From the human T2T-CHM13v2.0 reference genome, Homo sapiens: 64,000 nucleotides of DNA. The number at the start of each line of letters is the position of its first letter. The first letter of the stretch is position 1. This document shows, piece by piece, positions 26,148 through 61,644 of this stretch. Under the pieces are notes generated by a model. The model had not been told where the DNA came from, made no database searches, and saw only the letters and a program-made list of their open reading frames with translations. Position numbers and translations under genes: made by a program. Location of the stretch: contig CP086569.2 in assembly GCA_009914755.4 (NCBI GenBank), forward strand, positions 10,496,001 to 10,560,000, written 5' to 3'.

Positions 26148-29100
26148 ACAGTTTGGAAATTCTGTTGTTGTAGAATCAGCAAAGGGATATTTGTGAGCGC
26201 TTTGAGGCCATGGTGAAAAAGGAAATACCTTCACATAAAAACTCTAAAGAAGGTTTGGGAGAAACTGCTTTGTGATGTCTGCATTCATCTCACAGAGTTA
26301 AACGTTTCATTCCTTTGATAAGTCTGGAAACTCAGTTCTTGTACAATCTGCAAAGTGATATTTGTGAGTGCTTTGAGGTCTATGGTGAAAAAGGAAATAT
26401 CTTCACATAAAAACTAGACAGAAGCTTTCTGAAAAACTACTTTGTGACATGTGCATTCATCTCACAGAGTTAAACCATTCTTTTGATTGAAAAGCTTGGA
26501 AATGGTGTTCTTGCAGAATCTGCAGAGGGATATTTGTGAGTGCTTTGAGGCCTATGGTGAAAAAGGAAATATCTTCACATAAAAACTAGAAAGAAGGATT
26601 ATGAGAAACTGCTTTGTGATGTGTGCATTCATCTCACAGAGGTAAAGGCTTCTTTTCATTGAGCAGATTGGAAACTCTGTTCTTGTAGGATCCACAAAGG
26701 GGTATTTGTGAGCAGTTTGAGGCCTATCGTGAAAAAGGAAATATCATCCCATAAAAACTTGACAGAAGTTTCTGAGAAACTTCCTGTTTGTGTGTGCATT
26801 CTTTGGATTGGGCAGTTTGGAAACAGTATTTTTGTAGAATTGTCAAAGAGATATTTGTGAGCACATGGAAGCCAATGGTGAAAAAGGAAATATCTTCACA
26901 TAAAAACTAGAGAGAAGCTTTCTGAGAAACTGTTTTGTGATGTGTGCATTCATCTCAGAGTTGAACCATTCTTTTGATTGAGTAGTTTGGTAACAGTCTT
27001 TTTGTAGAATCTGCAAAGGGATATTTGTGAGTGCTTTGAAGCCTATGGTGAAAAAGGAAATATCTTCACATAAAAAACTAGAAGGAAGGTTTTTGAGAAA
27101 CTACTTTGTGATGTGTGAATGAATCTCACAGAGTTGAACCTTTCTATTGATTGAGCATTTTGGAAACAGTCTTTTTGAAGAATCTGCAAAGGGATATTTG
27201 TGAACACTTTGAGGCCTATGGTGAAAAAGTAAATATCTTCACATGAAAACTAGACAGAAGCTTTCTGAGACACATCTGTGTGATGTGTGCACTCATCTCA
27301 CAGAGTTGAACCATTCCTTTGAGAAGTTCACCAACAGTCTTTTTGTAGAATATGCAAGGGGATATTTGTGAGTGCTTTGAGGCCTATGGTGAAAAAGAAA
27401 ATATCTTCACATAAAAACTAGACAGAAGGTTTCTGAGAAACTGCTCTGCAATGTGTGCATTCATCTCACAGAGGTAAACGTTTCTTTTCATGTAGCAGAT
27501 GGGAAGCTCTTTTCTTGTAGAATCTGCAAAGGGATATTTGTGAGCAGTTTGAGGCCTATGGTGAAAAAGGAAATATCATCGCATAAAAACGTGACAGAAG
27601 TTTCTGAGAAAATTCCTAGCTATGTGTGCATTCATCTCACAGAGTTGAATGATTCTTTTGATTAAGCAGTTTGGAAACAGTATTTTTGTAGAATCAGCAA
27701 AGGGATATTTTTCAGCTCTCTGAGCCTTATGGTGAAAAAGGAAATATCTTCAATAAAAACTATAAGAATGTTTCTGAGAAGCTGTTTTGCAAGGTGTGCA
27801 TTCAACACAGAGAGATAAAAGTTTCTATTCTTTGATGAGTCTGGAAACTCTATTCTTGTAAAATCTGCAATGGGATATTTGTGAGAAGCTTGAGGCCTAT
27901 GGTGAAAAAGGAAATATCTTCACATAAAAACTAGACAGAAGATTTCAGAGAAACTTCTTTGTGATATGTGCATTCATCTCAAAGAGTTGAACCATTCTTT
28001 TGAATGAGAAGTTTGGAAACAGTCTTTTCAGAGAATCTGCAAAGGCATATTTTGAGCGTGTTGATAGGTATGGTGAAAAGGGAAATATCTTCACAAAAAA
28101 ACTGGACAGAAGCTTTCTGAGAAACTTATTTGTGATGTGTGCATTCATTTCACAGAGTTGAACCTTTCTTTTGATTGAGCAGTTTGGAAAGAGTCCTTTT
28201 CTATAATTTTCTAGAATCTGCAGAGGGATATATGTGAGCCCTTTATGGCCTAAGTTGAAATAGGAAATATATTCACATAGAAACTAGACAGAAGCATTCT
28301 GAGAAACTGCTTTGTGAAGTGTGCTTTCATCTCACAGTGTTGAACCTCCCTTTTGATTGAGGAGTCTGGAAACAGTCTTTCTGTAGAATATGCAAATGGA
28401 TATTTGGAGCTCTTTGAGGCCTAAGGTGAAAAAGGAAATATCCTCACATAAAAACTAGACAGAAGCATTCTGAGAAACTTCTTTGTGATGTATACATTCA
28501 TCTCACAGAGTTGAACCTTTCTTCTGATTGAGGAGTTTCAAAACAGTCCTTTTGTAGAATCTGCAAAGGGATATTTGTGAGCCCATTGAGGCCTACGGTG
28601 AAATAGGAAATATCTTCACATAAAAACTAGTCAGAAGATTTCTGAGAAACTTCTTTGTGATGTGTGTTTTCATCCCACAGAGTTGAACCTTTCTTTTGAT
28701 TGAGCAGTTTGGAAACACACTTTTTGTAAAATCTGCAAATGGATATTTGAAGCACTTTGAGGACTATGGTGAAAAAGGAAATATCTTCACATAAAAACTA
28801 GAAAGCAACATTCTATGAAACTTCTTTGTGATGTGTTCTTTCATCTCACAGAGTTGAACCTTTCTATTCATTGAGGAGATCAGAAACCATCTTTTTGTAG
28901 AATCTGCATATGGATATTTGGAGCAGTTTGAAGACTTGCTGAGAAAGGAAATATCTTCACATAAAAACTAGACAGAAGCATTCTGAGAAACTTCTTGGTG
29001 ACATGTGCATTTACCACACAGAGTTGAACCTTTCTTTTGATTGAACAGCTTGGAAACAATCTTTATATAGTATCTCCAGAGGGATGTTTGAGAGTGGTTT

Positions 29101-31168
29101 GAGGCTTATGGTGAAAAAGGAAATATATTCACATAAAAACTAGACAGAAGCTTTCTGAGAAACTTCTTTGTGATGTATGAATTCATCTCACAGTGTTGAA
29201 TCTTTCATTGGATTGAGCAGTTTGGAAACAATCCTTTTGTAGAATCTGCAAAGGTATATTTCTGAGCCCATTGAGGTCTATGGTGAAATATGAAATATCT
29301 TCCCATAAAAACTAGACTGAAGGTTTCTAAGAAACTTCTTTGTGATCTGTGCTTCCATCTCACAGAGTTGAACCTCTCTTTTGATTGAGCAGTTTGGAAA
29401 TACTCTTTTTGTAGAATCTGCAAATGGATATTTGGAGCACTTTGAGGCCCATGGTAAAAAAGGAAATATCTTCACATAAAAACTAAATGGAAGCTTTCTG
29501 AGAAACTTTTTTGTGATGTGTGCATTCATCTCACAGAGTTGAACAGTTCTTTTGATTGAGCAGTTAGAAATAGACTTTTCATAGAATCCACAAATGTATA
29601 TTTGAAGCAGTTTTAGGTCTATGGTGAAAAAGGAAACTTTTCACATAAAAACTAGACAGAAGCATTCTGAGAAACTTCTTTGTGATGAGAGCTTTCATCT
29701 CACAGAGTTTAACCTTTCTTTTCATGGAGCAGTTTGGAAACAGTCTTTTTGTAGAATCTGCAAAGGGAATATTTGTGAGCCGTTTGAGGCATGTGGTGAA
29801 AAAGTAAATGCCTTCACATAAAAACTAGATAGATGTATTTTGAGAAACCTCTTGGACGTTTGAATTCATCTCACAGGGTTGAACCTTTCTTTTCATTGAA
29901 CAGTTTGGAAACAGTCTTTTTGTACAATCTGCAAAGGGATATTTCTGAGCCATTTGAGGCTTATGGTGAAAAAGAAATATCTTCCCACAAAAACTAGACA
30001 GAAGCATTCTTAGAAACTACTTTGTGATGTGTCCATTCATCTCACGGAGTTGAAACTTTCTTTTGATTGAGCAGTTTGGTAACAGCATTTTTGTAGCATC
30101 TGCAAAGGTATATTTGTGAGCCCTTTATGGCCTAGGGTGAAATAGGAAATATCTTCATATAAAAACTAAACAGTAGCTTTCTGAGAAACTTCTCTGTGAT
30201 TTATGCTTTCATCTCACAGAGTTGAACATTTCCTTCGATTAAGCAGGTTGGAAGCAGTGTTTTGTACAATCTGCAAATGGATATTTGGAGCCCTTTGAGG
30301 CCTATGGTGAAAAAGGAAATATCTTCACATAAAAATTAGATGGAAGCATTCTGAGAAACTTTTTGGTGACGTTTGTATTCATCTCACACAGTCGAACATT
30401 TCTTTGATTGAAGATTTGGAAACAGTCTTTTTGTAAAATCTACAAAGGGATAATTGTGAAGCCTTTGAGGCCTATGGTGAAGTAGGAAATATCTTCATAT
30501 AAAAACTACACAGAAACATTCTGAGAAACTTTTTTGTGATGGGTGATATAGGAAATATCTTCACATAAAAGCTAGACAGACGCTTTCTGAGAAACTTCTT
30601 TTAAATGAGTGCTTTCATCTCAAGGAGTTGAGCACTTCTTTTGACTGAGCAGTTTGGAAAAACTCTTTTTGCAGAATCTGCAAATGGATAATTGAAGCGC
30701 TTTGAGGCCTATGGTGAAAAAGGAAATATCTTCACATAAAAACTAAACAGAAGCTTTCTGATAAACTACTTTGTAATGCATGCATTCATCTCACAGTGTT
30801 GAAACTTTTGATTGAGCAGTTTGTAAATGTCTTTTTGTAGAATCTGCAAATGGATATCTGTAGTGCTTTGAGGCCAAGAGGAAATATTTTCACAGAAAAC
30901 CAGACAGAAGCATTCTGAGAAACATCCTTATGATGTGTTCTTTCTTCTCACAGAGTAGAAGCTTTCTTTTGATTCAGCAGATTGCAAACAGTCTTTTTGT
31001 ACTATCTGCAGAGGGATATATCAGTGTTATCAGACCTATGGAGATAAAGAAATATCTTCACACAAAAACTAGACAGAAGCATTCTGAAAAACTTCTTCAT
31101 AATGTGTGCATTCATCGCATGTATTTGAACCTTTCTTTTGATTAAGCTGTTTGGAAACAGTCCTTTTG
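26148..31168 (+). repeat. alpha satellite, block A (~29 monomers of ~171 bp), orientation with ..CTTCACATAAAAACTAGACAGAAG.. on the plus strand
   Basis: Tandem ~171-bp monomers containing tctgcaaagggatatttgtgagcgctttgaggcctatggtgaaaaaggaaatatcttcacataaaaactagacagaagcattctgagaaactgctttgtgatgtgtgcattcatctcacagagttgaacc..ttttgattgagcagtttggaaacag. Neighbouring monomers differ by ~15-30%. Confidence 0.97.
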
Positions 31169-60946: not shown

Positions 60947-61644
60947 TTCTGTGTAGTTTTTCTGTGAGGATATTACCTTTTCCACCTTAGGCCACAAACG
61001 GCTCTAAATATCAACTTGGAAGATGCTACAAAGAGAGAGTTTCAAAACTGCTCTATCAAAAGATAGGTTCAACTCTGAGAGTTTAATGCAAACATCACAA
61101 AGAAGTTCCTCAGAATGCTTCTGTGAAGTTTTTATGTGAAGATATTTCCTTTCCCAACATAGGCTTCAATGTGCTCCAAATATCCACTCGCAGATTCTAC
61201 AAAAAGAGTGTTTCCAAACTGCTCAATCAAAAGAAAGGTTCAACTCTGTGACATCAATGCACAAATCACAATGAAGTTTCTCACAATGCTTCTGTGTAGT
61301 TTTTATCTAAAGATATTTCCTTTTCCACGATAGGCCGCAAAGTACTCCAAATATCCACTTGCAAATTCTACAAAAAGAGTGTTTCATAATTGCTCAATCA
61401 AATGAAAGGTTAAATTCTGTGAGATGAATGCACACATCATAAAGAGGTTTCTCAGAATGCTTTTGTATTGTTTTCATGTGAAGATGTTTCCTTTTCTACC
61501 ATAGGCCGCAAAGGGCTCCAAATATCCACTTACAGATTCTACAAAAAGAGAGTTTCAAAACTGCTCTATCAAAAGGTAGGTTCAACACTGTGAGTTGAAT
61601 ACACACATCACAAAGTACTTTCTCAGAATGCTTCTGTGTAGTTT
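60947..61644 (-). repeat. alpha satellite, block F (4 monomers) between two antisense L1 insertions
   Basis: ttctgtgtagtttttctgtgaggatattaccttttccaccttaggccacaaacggctctaaatatcaacttggaagatgctacaaagagagagtttcaaaactgctc... with 171-bp periodicity. Confidence 0.95.

What the first reader, a model, noticed from the sequence alone, without database searches (positions are those of the whole stretch)
26148..61644. Alpha-satellite domain switches strand four times; one inversion breakpoint (41311/41312) is clean with no transposable element
Alpha satellite lies in six blocks, A(+), B(-), C(+), D(-), E(-), F(-). Two orientation switches coincide with L1 sequence: block A to B across the L1 at 31656-33296, and block B to C across the L1 fragment at 38034-39208. 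The C to D switch occurs inside monomers with no insertion: ..cttcacataaaaacta|actgctcaatggg... That is a true inversion junction in satellite DNA. Strand switches in alpha arrays are uncommon and mark past rearrangements such as inversions or breakpoint reuse. Together with the lack of CENP-B boxes and of an obvious higher-order repeat, this suggests old, degenerating pericentromeric monomeric alpha rather than an active centromere core.
Basis: seen in the sequence. Interest (0 to 1): 0.5.

Follow-up and report, generated by a model that had tools for sequence, protein, structure and literature searches.

The report
Two nested inversions in old alpha satellite
A 35-kb stretch of old, non-centromeric alpha satellite changes strand three times (not four) because of two nested inversions, the inner one apparently made during the insertion of a single L1 retrotransposon; this kind of disorder is already known to be common in decayed pericentromeric satellite.

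Summary
The six alpha-satellite blocks and their orientations are real: A+, B-, C+, D-, E-, F-. That gives three strand switches, not four.

There is no higher-order repeat. Monomer identity is flat at about 81% at every lag. There is no CENP-B box, and every monomer carries the A-type box. This is decayed monomeric alpha in two layers, with a sharp boundary near 46701. It lies beside a decayed rDNA fragment.

Monomer phase at the block ends rebuilds complete monomers for A-end+B-right and for B-left+C-start. An identity-versus-distance test ranks the all-minus order C-B-A-D second of 192 arrangements. The switches are therefore best explained by two nested inversions.

The inner inversion (B plus the L1 3' part) is L1-linked. 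The two "L1s" are halves of one element. They are oppositely oriented and share 95-99 nt. One half joins B by its poly(A), and the other joins B by microhomology. There is no usable TSD. I read this as a twin-priming-like event during retrotransposition.

The outer inversion has the clean C|D junction, with 1 nt of microhomology. Its partner junction, at the left edge of the alpha, carries a 9-nt copy of the C end.

Strand switches and L1s are already described as common in divergent alpha. The result is ordinary, with a nice mechanistic example.

The parts
26132..26140 (+). TAAAAACTA at the end of the non-alpha left flank. It is identical to the last 9 nt of block C (alpha positions 8-16). 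It forms the left side of junction J1 (26140|26141).
   Evidence: The per-position chance is about 1.8e-5.
26141..31176 (+). Alpha block A, type-1 monomers. It starts at model position 86 and ends at position 121.
31177..31659 (.). Filler X: 483 bp that is neither alpha nor L1. It ends in a (TA)n/(CA)n microsatellite. It begins CAACAGTGCAAAGAG, which may hold a short alpha remnant (positions 121-128).
   Evidence: No other copy in the window. No Pfam, PDB or protein-database hit.
31660..33295 (+). L1 3' segment, from about ORF2p residue 809 to the 3' end, with a poly(A) of about 33 nt at 33262-33295 abutting B. This is the primary target-primed end.
33296..38036 (-). Alpha block B, type 1. The left end is at model position 132-135 and the right end at about position 121. 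This is the segment inverted by the inner event.
38037..39211 (-). L1 5' segment, antisense on the + strand. It is joined to B inside an imperfect microhomology zone (CCCTTTGCAATTCT). It shares 95-99 nt with the start of the L1 3' segment (38031-38129 against 31660-31758, 93/99 identical).
   Evidence: Translation matches ORF2p residues 626-839 at E 1e-126. RVT_1 match. Overlap and junction.
39212..41311 (+). Alpha block C, type 1. It starts at model position 134-137 and ends at position 16. It contains a young two-monomer tandem duplication.
41311..41312 (.). Junction J2, the clean C(+)|D(-) switch, with 1 nt of possible microhomology (A).
41312..43572 (-). Alpha block D, type 1. It starts at model position 95. 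It overlaps the A start (position 86) by 10-12 nt in inverted orientation.
43573..45256 (+). An ordinary twin-primed L1 insertion. The inverted 5' segment is 43573-43716(-) and the 3' segment with poly(A) is 43717-45256(+). It has a perfect 14-nt TSD, GAGAAGAATGTTTT, at 43559-43572 and 45257-45270. There is no strand switch here.
45257..59557 (-). Alpha block E. The first 8 monomers (to 46700) are type 1. From 46702 onward the monomers are type 2, with a sharp layer boundary and no interruption.
59558..60942 (-). An ordinary 5'-truncated L1 insertion at the TAGTTTTT/A site of a monomer. The TSD is 17/19 identical (59539-59557 and 60943-60961).
60943..61645 (-). Alpha block F, type 2, contiguous with E.
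61646..64000 (-). A longer L1 that runs off the window. Its poly(T) end abuts F at the same monomer site as the previous L1.

Best explanation
The alpha domain was once one uniformly oriented monomeric array. In window terms it was all minus, in the order rc(C) - B - rc(A) - D - E - F. Two nested inversions produced the three strand switches.

Inner event (my inference for how it worked):
1. An L1 RNP nicked a monomer at ...GGATGTTT|C between B and what is now C.
2. Reverse transcription was primed from B's left end at the poly(A).
3. A second break occurred 4.7 kb away, at B's other end.
4. That other 3' end annealed to the same L1 RNA about 1.6 kb upstream of the poly(A), through a short microhomology (ATTCT / imperfect 12 nt). 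It primed a second cDNA. This is twin priming with the two primers 4.7 kb apart instead of about 15 nt apart.
5. The fragment, now capped by L1 cDNA at both ends, was religated in reverse. One side joined directly to C. The other side joined to A through 483 bp of filler.

Outer event:
- The whole 26141-41311 segment was inverted, either by two breaks with end joining or by replicative template switching.
- This left the clean C|D junction, and a junction at the alpha/non-alpha edge that carries a 9-nt templated copy of the C end.

Shown directly: the orientations, the junction sequences, the phase complementarity, the L1 overlap, the poly(A) adjacency, the microhomology and the missing TSD.
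Inferred: that the inner inversion and the L1 insertion were one event, and the order of the two inversions.
For: 1. Phase complementarity.
- A-end + rc(B-right) rebuilds a 170-173-nt monomer.
- rc(B-left) + C-start rebuilds a 171-nt monomer.
- Two such matches within about 6 nt have a chance of roughly (13/171)^2, about 0.006.
- rc(D-start) + A-start gives 183 nt, that is one monomer plus a 10-12-nt overlap.

2. Independent test.
- Across all 192 orders and orientations of the four type-1 blocks, the predicted ancestral arrangement C-B+A-D+ ranks 2nd for the correlation between monomer identity and distance (rho -0.20).
- The present arrangement has rho -0.05.
- The ranking holds after per-monomer divergence is removed.

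3. Layer order. Type 1 (A-D plus the first 8 monomers of E) is followed by type 2. The layers stay simple only if the rearranged part is A-C.

4. The two L1 pieces belong to one L1.
- They cover adjacent ORF2 regions in opposite orientation.
- They overlap by 95-99 nt, 93/99 identical.
- That divergence of about 5-6% is about twice the roughly 3% per-copy divergence estimated for this L1. This fits an inversion about as old as the insertion.

5. Junction features.
- The poly(A) abuts B's left end.
- Antisense L1 abuts B's right end within microhomology.
- The TSD is at most 3 nt. The two ordinary L1s in the same array have TSDs of 14/14 and 17/19.
- Canonical insertions carry TSDs in 98.7% of cases (PMC12350158).

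6. Precedent in the literature (bioRxiv 2024.12.14.628481).
- L1-associated local inversions of host DNA at the primary RT end are described.
- Twin-priming intermediates whose two cDNAs are ligated to distal ends are described, from experimental and cancer genomes.
Against: - The single-event reading of the inner inversion is not proven. A TSD-less L1 insertion followed later by an inversion with a roughly 95-nt staggered break inside that L1 gives the same final sequence.
- The nick site TTT|C is a non-canonical endonuclease target.
- The origin of filler X is unknown.
- For the outer inversion, the A-start/D-start overlap is short and imperfect (one 2-nt indel and one mismatch). It could instead reflect loss of 161+171n nt.
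- The 9-mer at J1 is in direct orientation, not the inverted orientation a simple staggered-break model predicts.
- The left breakpoint coincides with the alpha/non-alpha edge, which is unexplained.
- The identity-distance signal is weak in absolute terms (rho about -0.2) and its data points are not independent.
- No outgroup or second haplotype could be examined.
Confidence: 0.62

Rival explanations
1. Two-step origin of the inner inversion. An L1 first inserted between B and C. Later, an unrelated inversion occurred with one break in alpha (between A and B) and a roughly 95-nt staggered break, or a replicative switch, inside the L1. That duplicated the 95 nt in inverted orientation.
For: It gives the same final structure. 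Inverted duplications at inversion breakpoints are a known outcome of staggered breaks (general knowledge). Phase complementarity is equally satisfied.
Against: It needs three unusual things together.
- A TSD-less insertion, with a TSD of at most 3 nt, while neighbouring L1s have 14-19 nt and 98.7% of canonical insertions carry a TSD.
- A break that happens to fall inside that 2.7-kb L1.
- A 95-nt stagger.
The divergence of the two 95-nt copies (about 5-6%) is as large as expected if they date from the insertion itself.
Confidence: 0.25
2. The segment inverted at the C|D junction is D-E-F (and beyond the window) rather than A-C. The ancestral array would then be plus-oriented: A-B'-C followed by rc(F)-rc(E)-rc(D).
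For: The C end (position 16) and the F right end (position 9-10) overlap by 7-8 nt in phase. This would look like the TSD of the L1 at 61646.
Against: - It would give the layer order type 1 - type 2 - type 1.
- That arrangement ranks 195/384 for identity versus distance, and 53/384 after correction.
- The phase coincidence is explained by the TAGTTTTT/A endonuclease hot spot, which two independent L1s use here.
Confidence: 0.08
3. Non-allelic homologous recombination between two inverted L1 copies inverted block B.
For: L1 sequence lies at both ends of B in opposite orientation.
Against: - The two pieces share only 95-99 nt and are otherwise complementary parts of one element.
- NAHR would require a free-standing 95-nt L1 fragment beside A beforehand.
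- A and B are contiguous in monomer phase with no L1 TSD there.
Confidence: 0.03
4. The clean C|D switch is an assembly artefact, a chimeric join.
For: A TE-free orientation flip inside satellite is the sort of thing a misjoin can produce. No read data were available.
Against: - Monomers here are only about 80% alike, so the region is effectively unique sequence for long reads.
- The partner junction and the phase and identity evidence form a coherent biological reconstruction.
Confidence: 0.03

Closest known systems
Divergent (monomeric) alpha-satellite layers flanking human centromeres
   Same: - Monomers of about 171 bp at about 80% identity, with no HOR.
- A-type (pJalpha-type) box instead of a CENP-B box.
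- L1 interruptions, inversions, and a sharp boundary between two monomer types.
- The literature describes exactly this disorder.
   Different: Nothing essential differs. The suprachromosomal family could not be assigned here. The domain abuts a decayed rDNA fragment rather than other satellite.
L1 twin priming (Ostertag and Kazazian 2001, as cited)
   Same: - Two L1 segments from one element in opposite orientation.
- One is attached by its poly(A), and the other is primed internally at a microhomology.
- Their inner ends overlap. Twin-priming junctions with duplications are documented.
   Different: - In twin priming the two segments are adjacent and flanked by a 7-20-nt TSD.
- Here 4.7 kb of inverted host DNA lies between them, and both priming ends belong to that fragment.
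- There is no TSD.
- A textbook twin-primed L1 sits 5 kb away (43573-45256) for comparison.
L1 retrotransposition-associated local inversions and rearrangements (bioRxiv 2024.12.14.628481)
   Same: - A poly(A)-marked primary RT end.
- Inversion of host DNA next to the insertion. One reported case inverts host DNA plus L1 at the primary RT end.
- cDNA at both breakpoints in inverted orientation, interpreted there as twin priming.
- Filler or ectopic DNA at junctions.
   Different: - Those cases are somatic (cancer) or experimental. This one is fixed in the germline and old, with about 5% divergence between the duplicated L1 stretches.
- It lies in satellite DNA.
Retrotransposon recombination-mediated inversions (inverted L1-L1 or Alu-Alu NAHR)
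   Same: L1 sequence lies at both breakpoints in opposite orientation.
   Different: There are not two independent elements. The overlap is only 95-99 nt, and one breakpoint lies in alpha without any pre-existing L1.

Membership tests
Monomeric (divergent) alpha satellite | Tandem monomers of about 171 bp recognisable by an alpha profile | tested here: met
   179 nhmmer hits, 164 near-full monomers of 160-176 bp. TRF period 171-172.
Monomeric (divergent) alpha satellite | No higher-order periodicity; neighbouring and distant monomers are equally diverged (about 70-85%) | tested here: met
   Mean identity is 0.80-0.82 at every lag 1-16 in every block. No diagonal stripes apart from one 2-monomer duplication.
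Monomeric (divergent) alpha satellite | Interspersed retrotransposons and orientation changes | tested here: met
   Five L1 interruptions and three strand switches.
Monomeric (divergent) alpha satellite | Assignment to a suprachromosomal family or layer (SF4, SF5, SF6+ classes) | not testable with these tools
   No reference class HMMs or consensus sequences were available, and none are in the text or supplements of PMC2729386. Only two local types could be defined, by 7 diagnostic columns.
Active centromere HOR array | Multimeric repeat with more than 95% identity between copies | tested here: not met
Active centromere HOR array | CENP-B boxes (core nTTCGnnnnAnnCGGGn) in a subset of monomers | tested here: not met
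   0 core matches on either strand, and 0 matches to the 17-mer at 2 mismatches or fewer. The box position reads CTATGGTG[A/G]AAAAGGAA.
Active centromere HOR array | CENP-A occupancy or a hypomethylated dip | not testable with these tools
   No epigenetic data were available.
Canonical L1 TPRT insertion (the L1 split around block B) | 3' poly(A) abutting the target | tested here: met
   A-rich tail of about 33 nt at 33262-33295, directly before alpha.
Canonical L1 TPRT insertion (the L1 split around block B) | Target-site duplication of 7-20 nt | tested here: not met
   The B-left and C-start ends overlap by at most 3 nt, and the composite monomer is 171 nt. The control L1s in the same array have TSDs of 14/14 and 17/19.
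Canonical L1 TPRT insertion (the L1 split around block B) | Endonuclease-type target (TTTT/AA-like) | tested here: inconclusive
   The reconstructed target is GGATGTTT|CTTGAG. It is T-rich 5' of the nick but has C instead of a purine 3' of it.
Twin-primed L1 | Two segments of one L1 in opposite orientation, with inner ends overlapping or slightly deleted | tested here: met
   31660-31758 against 38031-38129, 93/99 identical and inverted. ORF2p residues about 809-839 are present in both.
Twin-primed L1 | The two segments directly abut each other and are flanked by one TSD | tested here: not met
   4.7 kb of inverted alpha (block B) lies between them, the order is permuted, and there is no TSD.
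Twin-primed L1 | Microhomology between the host 3' end and the L1 RNA at the internal priming site | tested here: met
   The junction is CCCTTTGCA|ATTCTGTG. ATTCT is shared by alpha (GCAGATTCT) and antisense L1 (CCAATTCT), and the imperfect match extends to about 12 nt.
Simple two-break inversion (outer event, 26141-41311) | Two junctions whose four ends pair up into the ancestral adjacencies | tested here: inconclusive
   The A-start and D-start pair up with a 10-12-nt overlap, and the ancestral order ranks 2/192. The ancestral partner of the C end is non-alpha flank and cannot be checked. The 9-mer at J1 is in direct orientation, not inverted.
L1-L1 NAHR inversion | Two independent inverted L1 copies with long shared homology at both breakpoints | tested here: not met
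   Only 95-99 nt are shared, and the pieces are complementary parts of one element.

The most novel reading that the evidence does not exclude
The inner inversion would be a germline-fixed, evolutionarily old example of 'long-range twin priming'. Both 3' ends of a 4.7-kb host fragment primed reverse transcription on one L1 RNA, and the fragment was religated in reverse. If this is general, L1 retrotransposition itself, and not only later breakage, would be a major source of the strand switches that accumulate in dead centromeric satellite.
Probability: 0.3. Interest if true: 0.5.

Novelty: new member of a known kind. Interest (0 to 1): 0.3.

Why it matters
It matters little for centromere function. 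This is dead, monomeric pericentromeric alpha of a kind already catalogued genome-wide, where inversions and L1s are known to be frequent.

The useful part is mechanistic. Monomer phase acts as a built-in ruler, which lets each breakpoint be paired with its ancestral partner to within a few bases. That shows one strand switch pair was most likely created during an L1 insertion. Such L1-coupled inversions have so far been documented mainly in tumours and cell-culture assays. A fixed germline example supports the idea that they also shape genomes over evolutionary time. The same phase-ruler approach could be applied systematically to T2T assemblies.

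Tried and rejected
1. A 2.1-kb 'tandem duplication' (58862-60947 against 60943-63035, 88.5%).
- Rejected. The alpha part is only 82.8% identical, which is background, against 91% for the L1 part.
- These are two independent L1s at the same TAGTTTTT/A site.

2. Inverted duplication or fold-back between blocks.
- No colinear high-identity diagonals or antidiagonals were found.

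3. L1 endonuclease as the maker of the outer breakpoints.
- The A start lies at the TTTT/GA site also used by the L1 at 43573.
- However, the duplicated 86-95 stretch is on the wrong side of that nick for TPRT geometry, so I dropped this.
- The C end (position 16) is compatible with a 'reciprocal end' of the TAGTTTTT/A hot spot, but no L1 is attached, so this stays speculative.

4. The A-C block as an insertion with a 9-nt TSD (TAAAAACTA on both sides).
- Disfavoured. The right-hand copy is in perfect alpha phase with C, which would be a coincidence of about 1/171.
- A templated insertion or serial template switching fits better.

5. Identity of filler X.
- No hit was found in Pfam, in PDB sequences, in two searches of the 5.8-billion-protein database, or by window BLAST.

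6. Suprachromosomal family assignment.
- No class consensus sequences were obtainable from the papers held.

7. Chromosomal location.
- Literature searches for an rDNA fragment next to alpha gave nothing usable.
- My recollection that MIR663A and rDNA-like sequence lie at 20p11.1 next to the centromere is only a lead.

8. One literature search failed on a term that was too short.

Full report
**1. What is there**

I built a monomer profile from block A and ran it over the window with nhmmer. It returned 179 alpha-satellite hits.

After inspecting the junction sequences, the blocks are:

| Block | Strand | Coordinates |
|---|---|---|
| A | + | 26141-31176 |
| B | - | 33296-38036 |
| C | + | 39212-41311 |
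| D | - | 41312-43572 |
| E | - | 45257-59557 |
| F | - | 60943-61645 |

This is three strand switches, not four.

That is profile position 16(+) joined to position 95(-), with at most 1 nt of microhomology.
- There is no HOR. Mean pairwise identity is 0.80-0.82 at every lag from 1 to 16 in every block. The only high-identity pair is a two-monomer duplication inside C.
- There is no CENP-B box. The core motif has no matches, and the 17-mer has none at 2 mismatches or fewer. The box position reads CTATGGTG[A/G]AAAAGGAA throughout, which is the A-type/pJalpha-type box by general knowledge.
- CpG o/e is 0.17.

**2. Two layers and the surroundings**

Seven diagnostic columns split the monomers into two types.
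- Type 1 comprises A, B, C, D and the first eight monomers of E.
- Type 2 runs from 46702 to 61645.
- The change near 46701 is sharp and lies inside an uninterrupted array.

To the left of the alpha lies a decayed rDNA fragment.
- TC-rich spacer repeats are at 6154-7290 and 9117-10276.
- A mir-663-like hairpin is at 19509-19598.
- A full-length 18S is at 20384-22231.
- 5.8S is at 23283-23434.
- There is no 28S.
- The fragment is about 93% identical to the human rRNA sequences as I recall them.

**3. The interruptions that do not switch strand**

- The D/E gap is a textbook twin-primed L1. Its inverted 5' segment is 43573-43716 and its 3' segment with poly(A) is 43717-45256. The 14-nt TSD is perfect.
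- The E/F gap is a 5'-truncated L1 with a 17/19 TSD.
- D, E and F are therefore one contiguous array.
- An apparent 2.1-kb duplication is not a duplication. It is two independent L1s at the same TAGTTTTT/A site of the monomer, because the alpha part is only 82.8% identical.

**4. The inner inversion (block B)**

The two L1 pieces flanking B are parts of one element.
- The right piece translates to human LINE-1 ORF2p residues 626-839 (E 1e-126; RVT_1).
- The left piece starts at about residue 809 and runs to a poly(A) of about 33 nt that abuts B.
- They are in opposite orientation and share 95-99 nt, 93/99 identical.
- The antisense piece joins B's right end inside a microhomology zone. Alpha reads GCAGATTCT, antisense L1 reads CCAATTCT, and the observed junction is GCAATTCT.

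Monomer phase shows what was once adjacent.
- A-end plus the reverse complement of B's right end makes one monomer of 170-173 nt.
- The reverse complement of B's left end plus C-start makes one monomer of 171 nt.
- So A, B' and C were once a continuous array. An L1 sat between B' and C, and B together with the 3' 1.6 kb of that L1 has been flipped.

The L1 has at most 3 nt of TSD, unlike its neighbours. Canonical insertions carry TSDs in 98.7% of cases (PMC12350158). Between A and the L1 lie 483 bp of unidentified filler.

The simplest reading is a single event.
1. B's left 3' end primed on the poly(A).
2. B's right 3' end primed internally on the same RNA. This is the twin-priming logic, with the primers 4.7 kb apart.
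3. The doubly capped fragment was religated in reverse.

Two points support this reading.
- The roughly 5-6% divergence between the duplicated 95-99 nt is about twice the roughly 3% per-copy divergence estimated for this L1. The inversion is therefore about as old as the insertion.
- Comparable L1-associated inversions are described in experimental and tumour genomes (bioRxiv 2024.12.14.628481). That paper also describes twin-priming intermediates ligated to distal ends.

A two-step history remains possible: a TSD-less insertion, then an inversion with a 95-nt staggered break in the L1. I put it at about 25%. NAHR between two L1s is excluded by the tiny overlap and by the absence of a pre-existing L1 at the A/B breakpoint.

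**5. The outer inversion (the clean junction)**

The partner of the C|D junction is the left edge of the alpha domain, at 26140|26141.
- A starts at position 86 and D starts at position 95 on the other strand. The two ends therefore overlap by 10-12 nt in inverted orientation, and the composite is 183 nt.
- I ran an independent test. For all 192 orders and orientations of the four type-1 blocks I correlated monomer identity with distance. The predicted ancestral arrangement rc(C)-B-rc(A)-D ranks second, and the top arrangement differs only in the orientation of short block C. Its rho is -0.20 against -0.05 for the present arrangement. The result holds after per-monomer divergence is removed.
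- The alternative, that D-F is the inverted part, would give a type 1 - type 2 - type 1 order and ranks poorly.

One detail is unexplained. The last 9 nt of the non-alpha flank (26132-26140, TAAAAACTA) are identical to the last 9 nt of C. They are in direct orientation, and the per-position chance is about 2e-5. A templated insertion during end joining would account for it. So would serial template switching, in which both copies end at the same template position. A simple staggered-break model would not.

**6. Comparison with what is known**

- The T2T centromere study states that diverged alpha satellites are known to contain many inversions and that L1s are common in monomeric layers.
- Reviews list inversions and TE insertions as signatures of dead arrays.
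Its premise that strand switches are uncommon applies only to HOR arrays.
- The domain is a member of divergent monomeric alpha. It fails every sequence test for an active HOR core.
- The inner event works like twin priming and like the L1-mediated local inversions seen in tumours. It fails two defining features of a canonical twin-primed insertion, namely adjacent segments and a TSD.

**7. Verdict**

The class of phenomenon is already known. The new content is a base-level reconstruction of two nested inversions and a probable germline example of an L1-coupled inversion.

Not tested for lack of data:
- other haplotypes or species
- read support across the junctions
- SF class
- L1 subfamily
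- the source of the filler
- chromatin state

Noticed in passing
window 1-24600 (18S 20384-22231, 5.8S 23283-23434, mir-663 19509-19598, TC-rich repeats 6154-7290 and 9117-10276): The alpha domain abuts a decayed, truncated rDNA unit made of spacer, 5'ETS, 18S, ITS1, 5.8S and part of ITS2. There is no 28S. It is about 93% identical to human rRNA as recalled, with CpG decay. This suggests an old pericentromeric rDNA pseudo-unit. From memory, MIR663A lies at 20p11.1 beside the centromere; that is a lead only.
   Followed up: partly
window 46700-46702: There is a sharp switch between two alpha monomer types inside an uninterrupted minus-strand array. The types differ at 7 diagnostic columns, for example GCAAAGGG against GCAAGTGG and GGTGAAAAAGG against GGTGGAAAAGG. 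A few type-1-like monomers reappear at about 49081-49423 and 50108. This looks like a boundary between two age layers.
   Followed up: partly
window 59539-59557, 61640-61645, 43559-43572: L1 insertions reuse the same monomer sites. Two independent L1s are primed at TAGTTTTT/A (alpha positions 9/8). One is primed at CTTTT/GA (positions 84/85), next to where block A starts. Alpha monomers carry built-in L1 endonuclease hot spots.
   Followed up: partly
window 15536-16749: Another L1 3' end with an inverted 5' segment lies inside the rDNA-spacer-like flank. The segments are 15536-16170 minus and 16172-16743 plus, with about 370 nt of L1 missing between them. It is a second (or third) twin-priming-type L1 in this window.
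   Followed up: no
window 39931-40618: A young two-monomer tandem duplication lies in block C. 39931-40274 against 40275-40618 is 95.3% identical, and one monomer pair is 98.2% identical. This is far above the 80% background and is the most recent event visible in the alpha.
   Followed up: partly
window 51650-51769 and 52286-52408: Two monomers 638 bp apart carry the same internal deletion of about 44 nt (profile positions 93-136 missing). The neighbouring monomers 51770 and 52409 are 91.7% identical. This hints at an old local duplication of about 3.7 monomers.
   Followed up: no
window 17657-18195: Alu fragments were detected as weak Metazoa_SRP and mir-1268 matches on the minus strand, just upstream of the 5'ETS-like GC-rich region.
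   Followed up: no
window 31177-31659: The 483-bp filler between block A and the L1 has no detectable relative. It contains a 20-nt palindrome (31475-31494) and ends in a (TA)n/(CA)n microsatellite. Its origin is unknown.
   Followed up: partly
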